A DNA stretch of 64,000 nt, taken from IMG/VR virus record IMGVR_UViG_3300010429_001449. One strand, written 5' to 3'. The notes under the pieces were generated by a model that did not search any database, was not told the DNA's origin, and saw only the letters and a list, made by a program, of their open reading frames with translations. A program made the position numbers and the translations under genes. This stretch comes from a virus. Taxonomy: Duplodnaviria; Caudoviricetes. Shown here piece after piece: positions 1 to 42,960 of the stretch; position 1 is the first letter of the stretch, and each line of letters opens with the position of its first letter.

Positions 1-115
1 GAAATGACCGCGACGTTCAGAGTATTAGTCTGTTGCCTAGCTATTAGGCTACGTTTCCTTTGGTGGAAATGATGGGAGTTGCACCCATAATGTAGTCGCA
101 ATCGGCATTCAGCCC
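1..115 (-). ncRNA. Y-RNA-like (YrlA-like) RNA with circularly permuted tRNA domain; 3' end runs off window
   Basis: Minus strand: GGGCUGAAUGCC-GAUUGCGAC-UACAU, T arm AUGGG/UGCAACU/CCCAU (72-88), closed acceptor stem CAUUUCC-ACCAAA-GGAAACG (52-71), D arm GCCU/AAUAGCU/AGGC (35-49), anticodon-like arm CAGA/CUAAUAC/UCUG, then AAC-GUCGCGGUC pairing with GAUUGCGAC. Lies just downstream of the Ro60 gene behind its own promoter and boxA. Confidence 0.8.
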
Positions 116-123
116 AAAGTTGT

Positions 124-244
124 TAGCGGCTGGCCGGGATTCAGGGGACGAGCAATTCAGTTCTCGCCACGGGGTTTTGTACGTTCATTCATTAAACCCG
201 CTGCTCCCTGTCCCAACGCGCTTCTAAGCTTTCGCTCGCCGCTA
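124..244 (-). ncRNA. putative structured ncRNA co-transcribed with the Y-like RNA
   Basis: Closing stem UAGCGGC/GCCGCUA, GAGC-GAAA-GCUU hairpin, GUUGGGA/UCCCGGC and CAGGG/CCCUG stems, two distal hairpins; no ORF; between boxA and the Y-like RNA. Confidence 0.5.
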
Positions 245-277
245 CTTGCTCCACGCTGCAGCCGCATTCAATCTAGC

Positions 278-290
278 GATGTCAAAGAAC
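278..290 (-). promoter_or_regulatory. boxA-like antitermination element
   Basis: GTTCTTTGACATC downstream of promoter 322-349; matches copies at 22577 and 25206, all heading stable-RNA operons. Confidence 0.65.
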
Positions 291-321
291 AGCACGGCGT
301 CGCTTGCTAGGCGATACCCTT

Positions 322-349
322 AGTATAACAGAACCAAGGGGAATGTCAA
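322..349 (-). promoter_or_regulatory. sigma70-type promoter
   Basis: TTGACA-16bp-TATACT, one of 18 copies. Confidence 0.85.
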
Positions 350-390
350 GGCTTTTTCACAAAAAAATCCCGAAGTTCGTCGACTCTGAG

Positions 391-449
391 CAAAATATTA
401 TGCTTAAAAGTGCGCGAAACTTCACACAGATTTAAGCATAATTTTTTGC
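391..449. repeat. AT-rich inverted repeat
   Basis: CAAAATATTATGCTTAAA ... TTTAAGCATAATTTTTTG, 18-bp arms with 1 mismatch. Confidence 0.6.
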
Positions 450-457
450 CCGGAGTC

Positions 458-494
458 AAAAGCGGAAGGGGCGGGGGCTGCCTGCCCCTTCCGC
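458..494 (-). terminator. intrinsic terminator of the Ro60 gene
   Basis: GCGGAAGGGGCAGG/CCCGCCCCTTCCGC stem followed by TTTT on minus strand. Confidence 0.75.
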
Positions 495-504
495 GAGCGT
501 CCGA

Positions 505-2277
505 TTACTCGGACGCTTCTTCTGCTTCATCGGGCGCTGCGTCGCTTGCGCTCTTGCAAGCGGCGGCCAGATCGATGGCTTCGATCTCGCGCACCCACAC
601 GGATACGTCCTTCTCCGGCTTTGCCGTCGCCGTCTTCGTCTCCGTGCCCGGCTTTACGCCGTTGTTCAAGAAGTCGATGATGACCGACCATACAGCGTTG
701 GACCATCCGCCGATGTTCAGAATATCGGCGTCGCCTTCCGGAGCCTGCGTACTGTCGTTGGCCGCAAGGTCCAAACAGACCATCCGTGCGCCTGGACAAC
801 GCGACCGCAGCGCATTGAACTGCGCCATGAGTTCCGTGCCGCCATTACGCACGGTACGTCCCCTAGAATCAACCCACGACTCGTTGTCAGAAATGATGAC
901 AACGCGATTGATCTTCTGTTGCGCACGGTTGACCCGCGCCAGCGGAGCCGAAATGCACGTTCCGCCCCCACCGGCGTGTCGGATCGCATTAGTAAGCGTC
1001 AGAATCGAGTCCCTACGCTCCAACTTGACAGGAAGCACGTCGTTGGCGAACGGCATTACGGTCGATCCCATGTTCCTCTTGTAGAGGATGGCTGCCAGCA
1101 GCGAGGAAATGTCCGCGCACGTAGCCTTCGTCGTGGCCGAGCCACGGTAGCCGGTTACTGGCGCGTCCATCGATCCCGACAGGTCTGGCGCAATCAGCAG
1201 AGCGCCGTCGATGCCGATCATGTTGCTCGTTGCGAGGTCCATCGCGTCGTGCAGTGCGTCCCGAATAGCTTCCGGAACTTCGGTGTGGACGAAATCGTAA
1301 GCCGTCTTGATCTCGTACGGGAAGGGCTTGACCCTTTCCTGAATCTCCTCCTTGTCCCGGAGCTTCTCCGCGATGGCCTTGACAGCCTTCTCATTGCTGA
1401 ACACGCCTTGACGCTTGTACGTATTCAGATTCTTGAGGGTCTGTCTCCAGCCGCCGCGCAGCGCAAGCTGCCGCCAATGCTCTTCCTTCAGAGGAAGCGA
1501 CGACAGGAACTCCCAACGCACTCCCTTCGGAAGCGGGGCCGACTCACCCGCCAGCAATGCGGCCTTGAACGTCTCGTAGTCGCGGATGCACTTCGGCAGC
1601 TTGTCCCAGTCGGGAGCAAGCTCCGGGCGATTCGCGCAGAGCGCCTTGGCCTCACCGAGGGTGCGTGGGCACTTGCCGATCAAGTAGGCGAAGATAGCCC
1701 GTTCCTCTGCCGTGCGCGGCGTCGGGTGAACCATCTTGATTACGTCCGACAGGCTCACCGTGCCTTTGGCCGATCCACCGACAGAGTCGCCGAAAAGCTG
1801 ATCACCCGTGCGGCTCCGCAGCCAGTCACGAATGGCCTTCTTCGGAACCGCGCCAAGCGACTTCCGACCGACCGCACCGCTACGCATAATTTGCGTGAAG
1901 CCGAGCAGCATCTTGCCGTTCGTCACGACGCGACCGAAAGCGCGATTGAACCACGAACGACCGTCTGCGTCCCGCGAAGTCAGATGGGCAAGCAGGAGCG
2001 CCGGAGCGTCCTTCATTCCACCGTTTTCACGAGCGTACACAGCCGTCTTGGCAACGTATTCGGGCGTGTTGACCGCAGCCAGGGCCAGCATCTTGGCCAG
2101 TTCGTTTTCTCCGCTCTGATAGAACGTTCCGCCCTCCGGAAGCGTTCCAGTCATGGCGAACTGGGCGAGCGCGTGCTTGTCCGTGAACTTGTAAGCCACT
2201 CCCCCTGCTTCGTTGACCGTGTTGGTCGGAGGAGCCGTACGACCTCTCTGCGTCTTAAAAAGCTTCTTCGCTGGCAT
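505..2277 (-). CDS. rsr: Ro60/TROVE-domain RNA-binding protein with C-terminal vWA
   Basis: N-terminal NEAGGVAY...ALAQFAMTG...TFY, MKDAPALLLA, GRKSLG, DVIKMVHP, MIDAS DLSGSM, GGGGT, IISDNESW. Confidence 0.93.
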   Translation of the reverse strand: MPAKKLFKTQRGRTAPPTNTVNEAGGVAYKFTDKHALAQFAMTGTLPEGGTFYQSGENELAKMLALAAVNTPEYVAKTAVYARENGGMKDAPALLLAHLTSRDADGRSWFNRAFGRVVTNGKMLLGFTQIMRSGAVGRKSLGAVPKKAIRDWLRSRTGDQLFGDSVGGSAKGTVSLSDVIKMVHPTPRTAEERAIFAYLIGKCPRTLGEAKALCANRPELAPDWDKLPKCIRDYETFKAALLAGESAPLPKGVRWEFLSSLPLKEEHWRQLALRGGWRQTLKNLNTYKRQGVFSNEKAVKAIAEKLRDKEEIQERVKPFPYEIKTAYDFVHTEVPEAIRDALHDAMDLATSNMIGIDGALLIAPDLSGSMDAPVTGYRGSATTKATCADISSLLAAILYKRNMGSTVMPFANDVLPVKLERRDSILTLTNAIRHAGGGGTCISAPLARVNRAQQKINRVVIISDNESWVDSRGRTVRNGGTELMAQFNALRSRCPGARMVCLDLAANDSTQAPEGDADILNIGGWSNAVWSVIIDFLNNGVKPGTETKTATAKPEKDVSVWVREIEAIDLAAACKSASDAAPDEAEEASE

Positions 2278-5365: not shown

Positions 5366-6650
5366 TCTTGGCCATCTGCTGGCTGCTGTTGCCTTTTCCG
5401 TGCGGGACTACCCAGATAGCCTCTACGTCAAAGCCGACATGCTGAGCGAAATCGGAGAGAATGAGGTCTACCGGAATAGGTATCCATTGATACTGCACGT
5501 TGTCATTGACCATCACGAAAGGAGCGCCTTCTTTAAGCAGGACGGCGGCCTGCGCGATAACCAAGCTCATCTCAAAGAAGTAATTATAGACCAGTACCGT
5601 TATTTTGGGGTTATTCAGCATCCCCGTAGCGCGGCAAAAGATCAGTTTCGCCACAATCTCGGCGAGGTCTTTCTGCGCCTCGAACGCCGTCTTAGCCGCT
5701 GCGTAAACGTCGGCGGAGAAATAGCCGGTCAAATCCGTCTTGCTAAGATTCTCCACGGTACAACTCAGCATAGCCTGGCGAAGCGATTTCACCGCATCAG
5801 CACTTTCGCCGAGCAGAGCCAATTCCAGAGCGTACGTTCGCGTGTAGTCGTAGCGGTTGCAGTAGGGAGGGGAAGTGATTATGCCGTCAAAACTGGCTGG
5901 TGCGAGCAAGCCCATGATCTGTAGGCACGATCCTTTAATCAACGAGACACGCCCTTTGTGCCCGTCTGGAACAGCGCCCGCCAACAAGTCGGCCTCTATG
6001 CGAGCTAGTTTACTCTGGATTGCCTGCGTGAAAGATGCGATGTGGCGCTTGTGAAATGTCTTTCCCGCCGAATGGCCGGAGCGACTATCCCACCGCAAGT
6101 ACTGACCGTCTTTCCGAGTGTAACTGATTTCCTCCAGAACGCTCAGCGCGGCGAGACCCAACACACGCCCTAGCACGATGTTATGCACCCGACATGCGTC
6201 ATAACGGTAACGGCACAACTGCCGTTCGGTTTCTGGAGGAAACGCGCCGCGTGTAATCGGCAGATGATAGAATGGAATCGTCTCTCCTGCGCGTTCCCAC
6301 GAACGCGCCTCACTAAACCGTTTGATTCCGTCCGCCAAGTCTTTCTTATCGCTCACACCTACATCTCTGAGCGCACTGATTACTACCTGCCCGTAGGGCA
6401 GAAGTTCAATGCCCGTCGCTGAGAGTCCTGCATTACTCGCGGCGAAGAGCGTCGTCCCTGTGCCAGCAAACGGGTCCAACACACAGCCGGATTTGAGGCC
6501 AGTCTTAGCCAAGACATACGTCACAAAGTCCGCCGAGAAGCCTTCTCTGAACGGACACCAACCGTAGCTACCGTTGTCCTTGTTGCCCTGAGAGCTAACA
6601 AGTTGTCGGGTCAAATCGGGATTAATCTGTAGCTTGTCTGTAACAGACAT
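5304..6650 (-). CDS. DNA N4C methyltransferase (alpha order)
   Basis: VLDPFAGTGTT N-terminal, IITSPPY C-terminal. Confidence 0.88.
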   Translation of the reverse strand: MSVTDKLQINPDLTRQLVSSQGNKDNGSYGWCPFREGFSADFVTYVLAKTGLKSGCVLDPFAGTGTTLFAASNAGLSATGIELLPYGQVVISALRDVGVSDKKDLADGIKRFSEARSWERAGETIPFYHLPITRGAFPPETERQLCRYRYDACRVHNIVLGRVLGLAALSVLEEISYTRKDGQYLRWDSRSGHSAGKTFHKRHIASFTQAIQSKLARIEADLLAGAVPDGHKGRVSLIKGSCLQIMGLLAPASFDGIITSPPYCNRYDYTRTYALELALLGESADAVKSLRQAMLSCTVENLSKTDLTGYFSADVYAAAKTAFEAQKDLAEIVAKLIFCRATGMLNNPKITVLVYNYFFEMSLVIAQAAVLLKEGAPFVMVNDNVQYQWIPIPVDLILSDFAQHVGFDVEAIWVVPHGKGNSSQQMAKNGRQELRKCVYVWRKKRGTV

Positions 6651-22012: not shown

Positions 22013-22389
22013 TGGTGGACGCGGGGGGCATTGCAACCCCCGTCCAGAAATGGTTCCTTCTGCGCTTGCTACATGTTTAGCTGGCCTATTGTGTCTCGCG
22101 CTAAGAACCCCGGCCAGCGGGGTTTCCTTCGCGCCATCTCTAAAGCTTTAGCCCTTACGCCCAAGAGAACTGACGTAAGACCGATCCCGCTAGTTGACGC
22201 CTGCAAACAGACGCGGGCTTCCGCAAGCAGACGTGTTGCCTCTTGTTAGGCAGCAAGCCCAACCGCTTCGCGGCTGGGGAATTGCACGATGTTATCGGCA
22301 CTTGTGTTTTGTCAGGCGTTTTACGAGATTCCTGGCGATCTCGACATGCAACACAGACATCTTCCATCCTGTCGATTCTTGTCGCGCCC
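22013..22389 (-). ncRNA. ssrA: tmRNA, tag (A)ADNIVQFPSREAVGLAA*
   Basis: GGGCGCG/CGCGTCC-ACCA acceptor with G3:U70, 5' GAATCGAC motif, T arm, tag ORF 22246-22299 ending LAA-stop. Confidence 0.93.
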
Positions 22390-22576: not shown

Positions 22577-22589
22577 GTTGTCAAAGAGC
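22577..22589 (-). promoter_or_regulatory. boxA-like element
   Basis: GCTCTTTGACAAC. Confidence 0.7.
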
Positions 22590-22611
22590 TACGTCAAACG
22601 ACTCTACACCT

Positions 22612-22639
22612 AGTATAACGGAGAGGAACAGAATGTCAA
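22612..22639 (-). promoter_or_regulatory. sigma70-type promoter
   Basis: TTGACA-16bp-TATACT. Confidence 0.85.
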
Positions 22640-24408: not shown

Positions 24409-24490
24409 TGGCCGACGAGGGTGTAGAGAGGTTTGTTTTGGCGCTCCCTTGCGGGGGCAGGTAACATGTACTCCCTACGGCATTCGGCCA
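24409..24490 (-). ncRNA. short Y-RNA-like RNA (copy 2)
   Basis: UGGCCGA-AUGCC-GUAGGGAG-UACAU...AAAC-CUCUCUAC-ACCCUCG-UCGGCCA; GNCGAANG motif. Confidence 0.7.
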
Positions 24491-24943: not shown

Positions 24944-25018
24944 TGAGTCGACGAGGATCGCAAGAGACGTTTGGTAGTCCACAACGGGGCATGTAGTCCC
25001 TCGCTGGCATTCGACTCA
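24944..25018 (-). ncRNA. short Y-RNA-like RNA (copy 3)
   Basis: UGAGUCGA-AUGCCA-GCGAGGGAC-UACAU...AAAC-GUCUCUUGC-GAUCCUCG-UCGACUCA. Confidence 0.7.
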
Positions 25019-25205: not shown

Positions 25206-25218
25206 GTTATCAAAGAGC
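25206..25218 (-). promoter_or_regulatory. boxA-like element
   Basis: GCTCTTTGATAAC. Confidence 0.7.
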
Positions 25219-25228
25219 GTCTGTTCCT

Positions 25229-25256
25229 AGTATAACGGAGATACGCATAATGTCAA
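25229..25256 (-). promoter_or_regulatory. sigma70-type promoter
   Basis: TTGACA-16bp-TATACT. Confidence 0.85.
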
Positions 25257-28065: not shown

Positions 28066-29631
28066 TCAGGACGGAAAACCTCTGCTGACCCAATCGATAG
28101 CCTTCTTGGTGCGGGCCAACCGTTCTGCTTCTTGTCTAGCCAGGGCGAGAGCGTCGTCCCGCGAACGAATCGTTCCTTCTAGTTGCGCGTCCTGTACAGC
28201 CGTCAAGACCTCGCTGAATATTGGACTGGGCGAGAAGCCCATCGCAATAAGGTCGTGTCCGGTCAAGAGCGGTTTCGGCTTCACCTGTTCGGGAGGAAGC
28301 TCTTCTTTCTTGCGCCGGAGCCACTCGTAATCCGAAAGATCGCCGTTGCTTCCCACAGCATCGGCGCGATGAAGGGCCAGCAACCGGTCGAACAGAGGAT
28401 GCGCCATAATGCGCTTGAGCTTGGACAACTTCATGTCCTTGGCGTACGTCGGCACTAAGTGATGCTCAACAAGCCACTGGATAGCCTCAACATCAGCGTT
28501 GCTGAGCCTCATCCTCTTGCCAATCTCTCCTATCATCTCGGCCCCGACATCCTCATGTCTGTGGAACGTGATCCGCTGTTTGGCGTCGTTGAAGGCTTGT
28601 GTCTTAGGCTTGCCCACGTCGTGAAGGAGAGTAGCCCACGTCAAGACCAGATCGCCTTTAGGTTCCAGCTTATCCAGCATCAAAAGCGTGTGTTCCCATA
28701 CCGTACCTTCGGGGTGGAAGTCTTCCGGCTGCTCAATACCCTTCGTGGCGGCCATCTCGGGAAGCACTTTATCCAAAAGGTTCAAACCGTCGAGCAGCCG
28801 GAGTGCTTGCCCCGGATGTTGCGTTTGAAGCATCTTCCCTAACTCGTCGGTTATACGCTCTTGGCTGATGCCCGTGATCTTGTCCGCGTTGCTCTTTATG
28901 GCGTCGGCAGTCTTCTTGTCCATCTCGAAGCCGAAACGCGCCGCAAAACGGACGGCGCGGAGCATACGGAGATAATCCTCTGCAAATCGGTCATTAGGGT
29001 CGCCTACGGCGCGTAAGACGCCGTTTTCCAGGTCTTGTTGGCCTCCAACGTAGTCGATGACCTTCTTCTCTTTGGGGTCGAAAAACAAGGCGTTTATCGT
29101 GAAGTCGCGCCGCTCAGCGTCTTTTTCAGCGGTCGAGAAGCTCACTTCGTCCGGATGCCGTCCGTCCGCATATCCGCTTTCAGTCCGGAAGGTTGCGATT
29201 TCAAACTCGTCATCTCCATCTCGAACCCTTGACACGCCGAAGGCTTCCCCCGCAAACTTGGATTCGGGCCATATCTTGGAAACTTCGTCCGGCGTCGCGG
29301 AAGTTGCTATGTCTATGTCGTGACAGTCACGACCGAGAAGCATGTCTCGCACACAGCCGCCCGCAAAATAGGCTTCATGCCCGGCGTCCTTCAAACGCTC
29401 AACAATGTTCGTGGCGGCTTTGCCTTGCTGGGAATCGAGAACCGCCGCCCAAGCATCTTCTTTGATCTTCTTCTCGGGCTTCTTTTCTTCTTCTCCTTCA
29501 GCGGCTCCGGCGGCAGAAGTAAACTGCCCGGTTTCAGGGTCTTTGCATCTGCTGCCTGGTTTACCGGGAGCGATTTGACACGGCTTGTCGTCGGCTTTCC
29601 TGAATGCTGTTTGTATCCAATCATAGGGCAT
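28066..29631 (-). CDS. cca: CCA-adding tRNA nucleotidyltransferase with HD domain and YDW leader
   Basis: AGGCVRD, DIDIAT, RRDFTINA, EDYLRMLRAVRF, QERI, LLHDVGKP. Confidence 0.92.
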   Translation of the reverse strand: MPYDWIQTAFRKADDKPCQIAPGKPGSRCKDPETGQFTSAAGAAEGEEEKKPEKKIKEDAWAAVLDSQQGKAATNIVERLKDAGHEAYFAGGCVRDMLLGRDCHDIDIATSATPDEVSKIWPESKFAGEAFGVSRVRDGDDEFEIATFRTESGYADGRHPDEVSFSTAEKDAERRDFTINALFFDPKEKKVIDYVGGQQDLENGVLRAVGDPNDRFAEDYLRMLRAVRFAARFGFEMDKKTADAIKSNADKITGISQERITDELGKMLQTQHPGQALRLLDGLNLLDKVLPEMAATKGIEQPEDFHPEGTVWEHTLLMLDKLEPKGDLVLTWATLLHDVGKPKTQAFNDAKQRITFHRHEDVGAEMIGEIGKRMRLSNADVEAIQWLVEHHLVPTYAKDMKLSKLKRIMAHPLFDRLLALHRADAVGSNGDLSDYEWLRRKKEELPPEQVKPKPLLTGHDLIAMGFSPSPIFSEVLTAVQDAQLEGTIRSRDDALALARQEAERLARTKKAIDWVSRGFPS

Positions 29632-29646
29632 ACACAAACATCTCCA

Positions 29647-36548: not shown

Positions 36549-37745
36549 TTAGCCCAAAGGCTGCTTATCGAAAGTCCACTGAGCAACTCTGACCGCATCA
36601 CGATCTCCGCAGACCTTACCCACATCGTCACTGAGTTTGACGACCGGAACACCGGCGCATTTGGTCATCTTGATGACCATATTGAGCGCGGGAGACCCAG
36701 GAATATCATTGGTCAAATGTGTCCCAATCCCGAAAACGGGTTTGATGTAACCGTTGAAATGCTTCTGTAGAGCAAGCACCTTCTCTACGTTGAGGTTGTC
36801 ACTGAATACGACCGTCTTTGTCTGCGGGTCCAACCCGAGCGTACGGTAATGCGCAATGACCTGCTCACCGTGATGAAACGGATCGCCGCTATCTTGACGA
36901 ACACCGTCGTACAACCGGGCCAGCGAAGCGTCGAAGTCGCCCAAGAAAGCCGCCGTTCCGTAAGTATCCGTCAAGGCAATGCCGAGAGCGCCCTTGAAAG
37001 TCTGCGCCCATCGCTTTAGCGCGAAACGATTGACGTGTCGAAGGCCATCCAAGGCGCTGCATCCCATGAACCATTCGTGCGCCATCGTGCCGATGGGACG
37101 CAACCCCAGCTCACGCGCCAAGAAGACGTTGGACGTGCCCAAGAAATTGCTGAGAGAGGCGGGAGTGCTCACTATGGCCTGAAACACGCCCTTGTGGATA
37201 TCAAAGCTCCGCCTCCGCCGTGTCCCAAAATCGGCCCACTGACAACGGGCCTCGCCGAGAGCGGCGGCTTTTCCTCGGGCAGCGCATCCTAGCTCACCGA
37301 ACGCAAGCCCGCCGGGAGTCTTGTCAGCGTCGTAATAACGGAAGTAAAGCTCGCTGAGCATTGCCAGCAGCGGCACTTCCCACAAGATCGTGCGCTCCCA
37401 CGGGCCGCGAATAGAAAGGCAAAGCGCACTGTCGATCACATCGGTACTGACCGTCGTCATAAAAACTTCGTCTGGATAGAAACGATACGCACGAAGATAG
37501 TTCAGATACGTCCGGCTGAGGTAAGGACAATGCGCCTCTAACCACGCATACTCAGCAAGACTGAGCGAGAAGTCGCGCATGTTACGCACTCCAGCAATAA
37601 GGTCTTCCAACAGCGAGTGCGTGACCGGCTTCATACCACCGCGACAGATGAATTCGTACTCGACTTCGACGCCGGGGAAGTGCTCAAGCACCGCCTGCTG
37701 CATTGTGAACTTGTAGAGGTCGTTGTCCAGAATGCCTTGTATCAT
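36549..37745 (-). CDS. pncB: nicotinate phosphoribosyltransferase
   Basis: DNDLYKFTMQQ, DFGTRRR, GTSN, GTMAHEW, GVRQDSGDP, FGIGT, KLSD. Confidence 0.95.
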   Translation of the reverse strand: MIQGILDNDLYKFTMQQAVLEHFPGVEVEYEFICRGGMKPVTHSLLEDLIAGVRNMRDFSLSLAEYAWLEAHCPYLSRTYLNYLRAYRFYPDEVFMTTVSTDVIDSALCLSIRGPWERTILWEVPLLAMLSELYFRYYDADKTPGGLAFGELGCAARGKAAALGEARCQWADFGTRRRRSFDIHKGVFQAIVSTPASLSNFLGTSNVFLARELGLRPIGTMAHEWFMGCSALDGLRHVNRFALKRWAQTFKGALGIALTDTYGTAAFLGDFDASLARLYDGVRQDSGDPFHHGEQVIAHYRTLGLDPQTKTVVFSDNLNVEKVLALQKHFNGYIKPVFGIGTHLTNDIPGSPALNMVIKMTKCAGVPVVKLSDDVGKVCGDRDAVRVAQWTFDKQPLG

Positions 37746-41717: not shown

Positions 41718-42960
41718 GTGACTGCTCCCACGAGTAAACTCGCGGGCTTCTAGGCCGAAGCCAAAGTGTGCAATCCCACACTTAAGATGTTTCGAGCCGC
41801 ATTCAAATCTCTTCCCAGAACCAATCCGCAATCTGAACAGCGGAATTCTCGCTCCGCGAGACTCAGCTTGTGAATCGCTCCGCAGGAAGAACAAGTCTGG
41901 GACGTATAAGCTGGATTCACCTTCACGACTGTCCTTCCGGCACTTTCAGCCTTGAAGCACAGATGCTCAACGAAGGTTCTCCACGCTACGTCCGCTATCG
42001 ACTTGCTCAACTTGAACGGCTTGCCATTAACCAACATCTTCTTCGTGTTGAGGTCTTCAACACACAGGACGCCGTAGGCGTCTACGAGCCTTCGGCTCGT
42101 TTGATGACAGAAATCCTTCCGCCTGTTCCCGATTCGCTCGTGAACGAGGGCTGCCGAATGTCTATTCTTGTCAGAAGGGGTCTTTGACTTCCTTCTCTGA
42201 ACCTGAGCAAGAGCTTGCTCATCTTGTTTGAAAAACCGAGGGTTCGGAACTGTCTCTCCGGTTGAAAGCGTAGCAAAACTGGAAACTCCGAGGTCGATTC
42301 CGACCGTGTCGTCGTTTTTGGGAAGTTGTTCCGGTTCAACGTCGGAGATGAAAGTAGCGTACCATTTCCCGGTAGCAGTACGGCTAATCGTCAATCGTTT
42401 TACAACGCCTTCGATTTGACGGTGAAGAACAATCGGGATATCCCCGACTTTGGAAAGATGAAGTTTATCCCCTTCAAGCCGGAATGATCCGTTGTTTTGC
42501 GGATGAGTGAATGAGTTGTACCAACCCTTTCCACGGAATCGGGGATAGCCGGGCTTTTCCCCCGCCTTGACACGACGGAAGAAAGCTTTGAAAGCAAGAT
42601 CGAGTCGCATCCCTACTTCCTGGAGCGCCTGTGAATAAACTCCTTTGAGGAACGGTCTCTGTTGCTTGAGTGCAATAAGGCTGTTGTGTTGCTCGTACAA
42701 TCCCACTGATTTCTTGTTCTGTTCCCATTCCGTTTTCCGCTGGGCAAGGAAATGGTTGTACAGCCAACGGCACTCAGACAGAATGTTCACCATGCGGCTC
42801 TGTTGAGCCTTGCTCGGATACAACCGATACCTGAATGCTTTCATCATTATCCTCAGTATATCAGGTCTTATTATGCGTGTCAAGCAAAATTGCATAATAT
42901 TTTTCCTAACTCGCTCTCATCCCATGACTAAAGTCGTGGGCTTTCCCGCTCGTTTCGTAG
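41718..42960 (-). mobile_element. IS200/IS605-family element with tnpB only (IS1341-like); left boundary approximate
   Basis: Left hairpin AAGCCCACGACTTTAGTCATGGG; right hairpin AAGCCCGCGAGTTTACTCGTGGGAGCAGTCAC. Confidence 0.8.
41750..42847 (-). CDS. tnpB: RNA-guided endonuclease TnpB
   Basis: KAFRYRLYP, GIDLG, VEDL, TSQTCSSCG, CSDCG...RDLNAARNIL. Confidence 0.95.
   Translation of the reverse strand: MMKAFRYRLYPSKAQQSRMVNILSECRWLYNHFLAQRKTEWEQNKKSVGLYEQHNSLIALKQQRPFLKGVYSQALQEVGMRLDLAFKAFFRRVKAGEKPGYPRFRGKGWYNSFTHPQNNGSFRLEGDKLHLSKVGDIPIVLHRQIEGVVKRLTISRTATGKWYATFISDVEPEQLPKNDDTVGIDLGVSSFATLSTGETVPNPRFFKQDEQALAQVQRRKSKTPSDKNRHSAALVHERIGNRRKDFCHQTSRRLVDAYGVLCVEDLNTKKMLVNGKPFKLSKSIADVAWRTFVEHLCFKAESAGRTVVKVNPAYTSQTCSSCGAIHKLSLAEREFRCSDCGLVLGRDLNAARNILSVGLHTLASA

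What the first reader, a model, noticed from the sequence alone, without database searches (positions are those of the whole stretch)
1..2277. Phage Ro60 with a Y-like RNA that contains a whole tRNA circularly permuted at the variable arm
Seen: downstream of rsr, behind a promoter and boxA, the RNA reads Ro-type stem 5' strand, T arm, 3' acceptor strand with ACCA, AA, 5' acceptor strand, UA, D arm, anticodon-like arm (CU-AAU-AC loop), AAC, Ro-type stem 3' strand. Known: bacterial YrlA Y RNAs lie next to rsr and carry a permuted T/acceptor/D module, with the Ro-binding stem in place of the anticodon arm. Difference here: all four tRNA arms appear to be retained and the Ro stem sits where the variable arm would be. 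The apparent AAU anticodon is rare in bacteria. Inference: RNase P cleavage plus trimming of AA could give a two-piece tRNA with a free CCA tethered to Ro60, acting as a decoy or adaptor in RNA repair or counter-defence.
Basis: partly seen in the sequence, partly recalled or inferred. Interest (0 to 1): 0.92.

Follow-up and report, generated by a model that had tools for sequence, protein, structure and literature searches.

The report
Phage Y RNA carrying whole tRNA
Just after its Ro60 gene, a giant uncultured phage encodes nine small "Y RNAs" in a row, and the first one displays a complete, rearranged tRNA (anticodon arm and built-in CCA end included) on the Ro60-docking stem; this is a rare variant of the known tRNA-mimicking YrlA design, and its function is untested.

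Summary
With the docking stem removed and the halves rejoined, ARAGORN calls tRNA-Ile(AAU) at default settings, against 0 of 2000 shuffles.

The docking stem ("handle") scores 39.7 bits (E 8e-8) against a model built only from other phages' Ro60-linked RNAs.

A promoter and a boxA-like leader are followed by eight complete handle units and a half-handle, each complete unit enclosing a different module. Two more units lie in the tRNA cluster 24 kb away.

Among 79 permuted T-acceptor-D units from 162 Ro60 loci, three have a hairpin at the anticodon position. Only this one has a 7-nt anticodon-like loop.

No homolog exists. The one close relative keeps only a deletion remnant, so covariation in the tRNA part cannot be tested.

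Two-piece maturation has a published precedent (M. smegmatis YrlA), but here it is inference. A decoy or decoding role is speculation.

This scan has already reported phage Ro60 Y-RNA arrays, some with anticodon arms, on other DNA.

Verdict: a new variant of a known kind, of moderate interest.

The parts
505..2277 (-). rsr: phage Ro60 (TROVE/HEAT ring plus vWA domain with the DxSxS metal-site motif; acidic C-terminal tail)
   Evidence: phrog_850, 6e-40. D365, S367 and S369 are invariant in alignment A1.
457..492 (-). Intrinsic terminator of rsr (GGAAGGGGC...GCCCCUUCC followed by GCUUUUG)
   Evidence: Read.
384..449 (.). AT-rich palindrome between rsr and the array promoter; copies with 6 differences lie on other contigs
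322..349 (-). Promoter of the Y-RNA operon (TTGACA, 16 nt, TG-extended TATACT). The same promoter type stands before rsr (2383-2356) and before the tRNA operons.
   Evidence: RNA-library contigs stop at 313 and 287 (weak hint).
280..290 (-). boxA-like leader element GUUCUUUGACA, shared with the leaders of two tRNA operons (22589-22579 and 25218-25208)
116..272 (-). Leader unit U0: the 5' half of a handle (GAUUGAAUGCGGCUG) with its inner partner CAGCCGC but no outer closing strand
   Evidence: Conserved ends and different insert in the relative.
95..115 (-). U1 handle, 5' strand: outer GGGCUGA, loop AUGCC, inner GAUUGCGAC
   Evidence: Model R1 gives 39.7 bits, E 8.4e-8.
72..88 (-). U1 T arm AUGGG-UGCAACU-CCCAU, preceded by the conserved UACAUU (94-89)
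52..71 (-). U1 acceptor stem closed by a loop: CAUUUCC, ACCA, AA, GGAAACG (6 of 7 pairs)
   Evidence: NCCA enrichment.
35..49 (-). U1 D arm GCCU-AAUAGCU-AGGC, preceded by U8 A9 (51-50)
17..33 (-). U1 anticodon-like arm ACAGA-CUAAUAC-UCUGA (apparent anticodon AAU)
1..14 (-). U1 handle, 3' strand: inner GUCGCGGUC plus the start of the pyrimidine-rich loop. UCG and the outer strand UCAGCCC lie 1-10 nt beyond the window (L018 8278-8287).
24946..25016 (-). Handle-only Y-like unit in the tRNA cluster, before tRNA-Ser
   Evidence: R1 gives 45.7 bits, E 2.4e-9.
24410..24489 (-). Handle-only Y-like unit between two tRNA-Pro genes
   Evidence: R1 gives 45.3 bits, E 3e-9.
28066..29637 (-). Phage CCA-adding enzyme with an HD domain (context for CCA ends)
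   Evidence: PolyA_pol 1.1e-38, RNA-binding domain 2.1e-18, HD 3e-11.

Best explanation
The RNA at window 115..1 (plus 10 nt beyond the edge) is unit 1 of a phage stable-RNA operon that lies directly after rsr. The operon has a promoter and a boxA-like leader, then a half-handle, then eight complete Y RNAs, then a terminator. Every complete unit carries the same YrlA-type docking stem for Ro60: a 6-7 bp outer helix ending GA, an AUGC(C) loop, a covarying 8-11 bp inner helix, a (U)ACAU(G) motif, and a pyrimidine-rich loop ending CUCG. Each unit presents a different module. In unit 1 the module is a complete tRNA body in circularly permuted order. Its acceptor stem is closed by an ACCAAA loop, and the handle leaves at the variable-arm position, where class II tRNAs carry their long arm. 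It most likely acts as a non-decoding tRNA mimic that is bound by the phage Ro60 and offers a tRNA shape to tRNA-binding proteins. Shown: sequence, fold, handle family membership, tRNA-likeness, operon context, and presence in RNA libraries. Inferred: Ro60 binding; RNase P cleavage before G1 and trimming of AA to give two paired pieces with a free ACCA end, as published for M. smegmatis YrlA; and the identity of the proteins it engages. The layout fits the published idea that YrlA arose from a dimeric tRNA: T arm, 3' strand and CCA from tRNA one, a 2-nt spacer, then 5' strand, D arm and anticodon arm from tRNA two.
For: The closing strand lies 4 nt beyond the edge. The minimum-energy fold equals the proposed fold, z -4.18. 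The un-permuted sequence is called tRNA-Ile(aat) by ARAGORN for every join tried, against 0 of 2000 shuffles. Tertiary-pair positions read from the sequence fit a tRNA: U8, A14, A15:U48, G53:C61, U54:A58. The D and T loops (AAUAGCU and UGCAACU) match the phage's own variant tRNA elbow. Handle model R1 was built from 37 short units of other phages, and 11 of its 13 pairs show compensatory changes. It hits unit 1 over its full length at 39.7 bits, E 8.4e-8. Sister units 3 and 6 match Rfam YrlA at 35 and 52 bits. The scaffold table shows covarying inner helices. Orthologous units in the relative keep their helices through compensatory changes. Tandem handle arrays lie beside rsr in many phage loci and in rhizobia. 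Encoded NCCA follows the acceptor 3' strand in 18 of 79 units, against 1.6% expected. RNA-library contigs from two studies cover the leader and unit 1 and stop near the predicted start (weak hint). RNase P cleavage and a CCA end are published for M. smegmatis YrlA (PMC4201824). The dimeric-tRNA origin model is in 10.1101/312249.
Against: Unit 1 has no homolog, so its four arms have no covariation support. The closest relative has deleted the module together with the inner 3' strand, so the unit is dispensable there. Rfam YrlA does not hit it. In the conserved GNCGAA motif its C is a U, compensated by an A opposite. The acceptor and anticodon stems each carry one mismatch. Ro60 binding, RNA ends and processing were not observed, because only assembled contigs of RNA runs were available.
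Confidence: 0.75

Rival explanations
1. Unit 1 is a decaying relic. A tandem tRNA duplicate was caught inside a handle and no longer has a role of its own; it survives in this phage only by chance.
For: The module is deleted in the only close relative. There are mismatches at 6:67 and 27:43. A34 makes an odd anticodon, and position 21 is U. The inner helix and the UACAUU motif are the most divergent of the array. No homolog exists elsewhere.
Against: All five helices and the tertiary-pair positions are intact. ARAGORN accepts the un-permuted sequence at default thresholds. The handle still scores 39.7 bits. The relative's remnant keeps an unpaired 5' inner strand, which suggests the unit predates the split of two phages whose Ro60 proteins are only 69% identical. 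The sequence is identical in samples from several studies.
Confidence: 0.15
2. Unit 1 is a permuted gene for a working decoding tRNA (Ile, anticodon AAU, perhaps read as inosine). It would mature as a two-piece tRNA, or by excision and ligation as in the permuted tRNA genes of Cyanidioschyzon, with the handle serving only as a processing helix.
For: The tRNA call is complete once the sequence is un-permuted. ACCA is encoded. The phage has its own CCA-adding enzyme. Two-piece tmRNA shows that a permuted gene can yield a chargeable RNA (my own knowledge, not tested here).
Against: The same handle sits on ten other units, most of which cannot be tRNAs, and it belongs to the family found beside Ro60 genes. 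I know of no splicing endonuclease in bacteria, and no RNA ligase turned up among the 20 largest window proteins tested. An A34 anticodon other than ACG is rare in bacteria. The connector at the variable position is long. The relative lacks the module.
Confidence: 0.05
3. The shared stem is not a Ro60 site. It is a processing signal (for example for RNase III or RNase E) that cuts the phage's stable-RNA transcripts into units.
For: Two units lie in a tRNA operon 24 kb from rsr. All units are co-transcribed behind boxA-like leaders, as in rRNA and tRNA operons.
Against: The stem matches the YrlA consensus, including GAAUGC, CUAC and CUYGUC. Like stems cluster next to Ro60 genes in many of the 80 phage and 80 bacterial loci scanned. 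Related phage RNAs that carry the CGAA motif bind phage Ro60 in vitro (PMC12135203). The internal loops are conserved in sequence, which a plain double-strand signal would not require.
Confidence: 0.05

Closest known systems
YrlA (Rfam RF02553): tRNA-like Y RNA of Salmonella, M. smegmatis and mycobacteriophages (Chen et al. 2014, PMC4201824; Wang et al. 2018, 10.1101/312249)
   Same: It is encoded next to rsr. The 5' and 3' ends form a Ro-docking stem with GAAUGC...CUAC...CUYGUC. The order is permuted: T arm, acceptor, UA, D arm. The tertiary-pair positions are kept. In M. smegmatis the acceptor loop is cut by RNase P and the RNA gains a CCA end.
   Different: Published YrlAs lack an anticodon loop, and their docking stem continues the anticodon stem. 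Here a 7-nt-loop anticodon arm is kept and the stem leaves at the variable position. ACCA is encoded rather than added. The Rfam model does not hit this unit. The C of GNCGAA is a U.
D. radiodurans Yrn1 (Chen et al. 2014)
   Same: It is a Y RNA that can be drawn with an anticodon-like arm next to its T arm, which shows that the docking stem can sit at more than one place on the cloverleaf.
   Different: In Yrn1 the stem takes the acceptor position. The 'anticodon loop' has 6 nt, the D arm is doubtful, and there is no CCA. That topology resembles units 4 and 7 of this array, not unit 1.
Thermus phage phiLo Ro60 with Yrl1 and Yrl2 (PMC12135203)
   Same: It is a phage Ro60 (best solved match to this protein, E 4.5e-20) with Y-like RNAs encoded beside the gene. 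Binding was shown in vitro.
   Different: phiLo has two RNAs upstream of the gene, and the passages I read report no tRNA-like module. Here nine lie downstream, and most carry tRNA-like modules.
Two-piece tmRNA and the permuted tRNA genes of Cyanidioschyzon merolae (own knowledge, and as discussed in 10.1101/312249)
   Same: In both, the gene order places the 3' acceptor strand with CCA before the 5' acceptor strand, and processing opens the acceptor end.
   Different: Those RNAs become chargeable and functional. Nothing shows that here, and their helices are not Ro60 handles.
Units with a hairpin at the anticodon position in Mesorhizobium (L173 5663-5805) and phage locus L080 7851-7984
   Same: They have the same topology: D arm, hairpin, handle, T arm. 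The Mesorhizobium unit also encodes GCCA.
   Different: Their hairpins end in GNRA tetraloops, not a 7-nt anticodon-like loop, and they are not sequence homologs of unit 1.

Membership tests
Ro60/Rsr protein family | TROVE/HEAT ring plus C-terminal vWA domain, homologous over the full length to solved Ro60 proteins | tested here: met
   Pfam vWA_Ro60 5.7e-14. 2NVO aligns over residues 20-536 and 9NEN over 21-536. phrog_850 6e-40. The TROVE domain itself was not hit at E 0.001 for this protein, but it is on record for its relatives.
YrlA-type Y RNA (RF02553) | Encoded within 4 kb of rsr | tested here: met
   Unit 1 starts about 390 nt after the rsr stop codon.
YrlA-type Y RNA (RF02553) | The 5' and 3' ends pair into a stem carrying the GNCGAAN0-1G Ro-binding motif | tested here: inconclusive
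   The stem is present and closed, and the handle model gives 39.7 bits. The motif reads GCUGAAUG: its C is a U, paired with an A.
YrlA-type Y RNA (RF02553) | Permuted tRNA-like module: T arm, acceptor-like stem, UA, D arm | tested here: met
YrlA-type Y RNA (RF02553) | The docking stem takes the place of the anticodon stem-loop (no anticodon loop) | tested here: not met
   An anticodon-like arm is present and the stem leaves at the variable position.
YrlA-type Y RNA (RF02553) | Score at or above the Rfam gathering threshold (69 bits) | tested here: not met
   Unit 1 has no hit at E up to 10 or up to 1. Sister units score 35 and 52 bits.
YrlA-type Y RNA (RF02553) | Bound by Ro60 in cells or in vitro | not testable with these tools
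   Needs a pull-down or a band-shift assay.
Canonical tRNA | Contiguous cloverleaf with a free 5' end and a free CCA 3' end | tested here: not met
   ARAGORN and the Rfam tRNA model find no full tRNA on the native sequence. A tRNA is called only after the order is rearranged in silico.

The most novel reading that the evidence does not exclude
Unit 1 is cut by RNase P before G1 and trimmed to ACCA. That gives a two-piece tRNA body with both a CCA end and an anticodon loop, and it stays tethered to phage Ro60 through its variable-arm handle. The complex then works as bait or decoy for host tRNA-targeting factors such as anticodon nucleases, or it is even aminoacylated. On this reading the array is a panel of tRNA decoys that brings Ro60 (and a nuclease partner) to tRNA-directed defence proteins.
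Probability: 0.12. Interest if true: 0.85.

Novelty: new variant of a known kind. Interest (0 to 1): 0.55.

Why it matters
Y RNAs of the YrlA type are thought to tether Ro60 to unknown tRNA-binding proteins, and to have arisen from dimeric tRNA transcripts. A unit that still has the 3' strand with CCA, a 2-nt spacer, the 5' strand, the D arm and an anticodon arm looks like a preserved intermediate of that origin. It also widens the set of proteins such RNAs could engage to those that read the anticodon loop or the CCA end. The operon is compact: about ten different tRNA-shaped baits share one handle, beside a phage Ro60 and a phage CCA-adding enzyme. That makes it a natural test bed for asking what Ro60 and its Y RNAs do during infection.

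Tried and rejected
1. No whole genome is held for this window.
2. The region has no blastn match in the phage collection.
3. An exact 41-mer of unit 1 was absent from viral contigs.
4. The array's handle pattern gave nothing in viral contigs. In metagenome contigs it found only the known relative and one unrelated GC-rich locus.
5. A crude rotation of the units gave no ARAGORN call for unit 1, because left-over handle bases lengthened the variable region. Finer trimming fixed this.
6. A V-type call in Hahella (L106) was an artefact: it is a classical YrlA.
7. Searching with R1 with filters off gave only low partial scores for units with long inserts. I guess the cause is a limit on hit length. 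I rely on the default search instead.
8. No parent tRNA was found among the 16 ARAGORN tRNA calls (one of them is array unit 7), one further Rfam-called tRNA and the unit 4 core (at most 62% identity).
9. Pfam found no RNA ligase or RtcB among the 20 largest window proteins tested; this was not exhaustive.
10. The RNA runs were available only as assembled contigs, so they gave no ends, no strand and no expression levels. Stretches of rsr without cover in those runs mean nothing.
11. Two review papers were not held.
12. U0 could not be folded into a complete handle.
Full report
**Where it lies.** The 590-aa ORF at window 505-2277 (minus strand) is a Ro60/Rsr protein. It matches Pfam vWA_Ro60 at 5.7e-14. 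By sequence it matches Thermus phage phiLo Ro60 (9KOP/9L5Y, 4.5e-20). It aligns over residues 20-536 with D. radiodurans Rsr (2NVO) and over 21-536 with RO60 (9NEN). It also hits phrog_850 at 6e-40.

No genome is held for the window, and the phage collection has no DNA match. The exact protein is on record on contigs of up to 269 kb. The contigs read came from anaerobic-digester and other assemblies. The window carries 13 tRNA genes and a tmRNA. Together with the hits to phage-only protein families, this fits a jumbo phage.

Locus L018 is the same contig read past the window edge. Window position w corresponds to L018 position 8278 - w.

**The observation.** On the minus strand, after the rsr terminator, the features come in this order:
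- A sigma70-type promoter (TTGACA, 16 nt, TG-extended TATACT; 349-322).
- A boxA-like GUUCUUUGACA at 290-280.
- A 200-nt leader.
- The RNA at 115..1.

L018 reads ...GUCAUUUC|UCGUCAGCCC, so the strand starts 4 nt beyond. RNAfold without constraints returns the same five-way junction as both minimum-energy and centroid structure: -43.9 kcal/mol, z -4.18, none of 200 shuffles as stable.

**Is the insert really a tRNA?** On the native order, ARAGORN finds nothing. The Rfam tRNA model gives only a truncated 23-bit match.

I then removed the handle and joined the 5' half to the 3' half. ARAGORN at default thresholds called tRNA-Ile(aat) for every join tried and over a grid of trimmings. None of 2000 shuffles was called.

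Read from the sequence, the positions of tertiary pairs fit a tRNA: U8, A14, A15:U48, G53:C61 and U54:A58. Over the sister units the Levitt pair covaries: A15:U48 in units 1, 4 and 7, and G15:C48 in units 3 and 6.

The D loop AAUAGCU and T loop UGCAACU belong to a variant elbow used by this phage's own tRNAs. Those without GG in the D loop have UGCRA rather than UUCRA T loops.

There are three blemishes: C6.A67, A27.A43 and an A34 'anticodon'. No parent was found among the local tRNA sequences compared (at most 62% identity).

**Is the stem a Ro60 handle?** Rfam YrlA (RF02553) does not hit unit 1. It does hit sister units 3 and 6 at 35 and 52 bits (gathering score 69), and units of the relative at 44 and 25 bits.

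I built an independent model (R1) from 37 short, handle-only units found next to Ro60 genes in other phages. In that alignment, 11 of 13 pairs show compensatory changes. R1 matches unit 1 end to end at 39.7 bits, E 8.4e-8, and treats the tRNA module as an insert.

The scaffold table shows the shared plan: outer helix NNNNGA/UCNNNN, AUGC(C), a covarying inner helix, (U)ACAU(G), and a pyrimidine-rich loop ending CUCG. In unit 1 the C of the published GNCGAA motif is a U paired with an A.

**The wider picture.** Unit 1 is the first complete unit of an operon that runs beyond the window.

| Unit | Module |
|---|---|
| U0 | half-handle only |
| U1 | complete permuted tRNA |
| U2 | D-like hairpin, T arm and a 7-bp UUCG-capped acceptor |
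| U3 | classical YrlA order |
| U4 | D, anticodon (CGU) and T arms in normal order, with the handle at the acceptor end |
| U5 | anticodon-like hairpin, mini T arm, acceptor with ACCA and a long insert |
| U6 | classical YrlA with ACCA and a 76-nt acceptor insert |
| U7 | class II-like tRNA body |
| U8 | handle only |

A terminator follows U8. Two more handle-only units lie in the tRNA-Pro/Ser operon at 25016-24946 and 24489-24410.

All three stable-RNA operons share the promoter type and the boxA-like element. The phage also encodes a CCA-adding enzyme with an HD domain.

Contigs in two metatranscriptome runs from different studies cover the leader and unit 1 and stop at 313 and 287, close to the predicted start near 315. 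This is only a weak hint of transcription.

**Relatives.** The only close relative (Ro60 69% identical; L021, same as L103) has the same promoter, boxA and array. Its helices in units 2, 4 and 5 are kept through compensatory changes.

At the unit 1 position it has only GGGCUGAACGCGGACAGCGAUUA followed by UCAGCCC. The 5' strand of the handle survives, but the tRNA module and the inner 3' strand are gone. This suggests that the unit predates the split and was lost there.

No other homolog was found.

**How unusual is the layout?** Tandem handle arrays beside rsr are common. Examples are seven units in L031 and four or five in L022, L041, L045, L065, L081 and L086, and three to five in rhizobia.

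A structural scan of 162 Ro60 loci found 79 permuted T-acceptor-D units. Three have a real hairpin between the D arm and the handle: unit 1, L080 and a Mesorhizobium unit. Only unit 1 has a 7-nt loop; the other two end in GNRA tetraloops.

An encoded NCCA directly after the acceptor 3' strand occurs in 18 of the 79 units, against 1.6% expected by chance. A built-in CCA is therefore a recurrent trait of this family, not a peculiarity of unit 1.

**Comparison with what is published.**
- Chen et al. 2014 (PMC4201824) describe YrlA as T arm, acceptor and D arm, with the Ro stem in place of the anticodon arm. They show that M. smegmatis YrlA is cut by RNase P and gains CCA in vivo. They draw Yrn1 with an anticodon-like arm in a different topology.
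- Wang et al. [quoted passage not shown] They discuss an origin from dimeric tRNA transcripts.
- For phage phiLo, Ro60 binds two adjacent Y-like RNAs and host PNPase in vitro (PMC12135203).

Unit 1 is therefore a new variant of a known kind. The two-piece idea extends a published precedent and is not a new mechanism.

Earlier follow-ups of this scan reported phage Ro60 arrays, and in two cases anticodon-bearing units, on other DNA. In my own sample such units are rare.

**Verdict.** The structure is real and well supported. Its assignment to the Ro60-partner RNA family rests on the handle and the genomic context. Processing, binding and any decoy or decoding role remain inference.

Noticed in passing
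L018 8006-9390 (beyond window position 1): The Y-RNA operon has a half-handle and eight complete handle units with different modules, and ends in a terminator. A fresh promoter and a tRNA-Arg(tct) gene follow.
   Followed up: yes
window 24410-24489 and 24946-25016, minus strand: Two handle-only Y-like RNAs are interspersed with the tRNA-Pro and tRNA-Ser genes, 24 kb from rsr.
   Followed up: yes
window 280-349, 22579-22637, 25208-25240, minus strand: Three stable-RNA operons share one promoter type (TTGACAT, 15 nt, GTTATACTARG) and a boxA-like GCUCUUUGAYA about 25-35 nt downstream.
   Followed up: partly
window tRNA genes; L018 9155-10289: D loop and T loop covary. tRNAs without GG in the D loop (AAUAGYA, AAGAGUA) have UGCRA T loops instead of UUCRA. 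Units 1, 4 and 7 share this variant elbow.
   Followed up: partly
79 units in loci L018-L183: An encoded NCCA directly follows the acceptor 3' strand in 18 of 79 permuted YrlA-like units (7 of 21 in phage loci, 11 of 58 in bacterial loci).
   Followed up: partly
L173 5663-6373; L107, L110, L122 at about 5750-6310: Rhizobial rsr loci carry tandem arrays of three to five handle units. One Mesorhizobium unit has a GCAA-capped hairpin at the anticodon position and an encoded GCCA.
   Followed up: partly
window 384-449: An AT-rich 66-nt palindrome lies between rsr and the array promoter. Copies with 6 differences lie on other contigs of the same metagenomes.
   Followed up: no
window 116-272, minus strand: The leader 'U0' has the 5' half of a handle and an inner partner strand but no outer closing strand. 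Its ends are conserved in the relative, but the insert differs. This is unexplained.
   Followed up: partly
window 1-7 and 52-58, minus strand: The 5' acceptor strand GGAAACG could also pair with CAUUUCU in the handle's 3' internal loop (6 of 7 pairs, one of them G.U). This could be chance or an alternative fold.
   Followed up: no
L018 8608-8670 versus L021 3748-3808: Unit 4 has the anticodon loop CUCGUAA in this phage and CUCAUAA in the relative, on identical stems.
   Followed up: no
window 28066-29637, 36549-37745, 41750-42895, 22013-22389: The window also holds a CCA-adding enzyme with an HD domain, a nicotinate phosphoribosyltransferase, a TnpB/IS605 OrfB-type gene and a tmRNA gene.
   Followed up: partly
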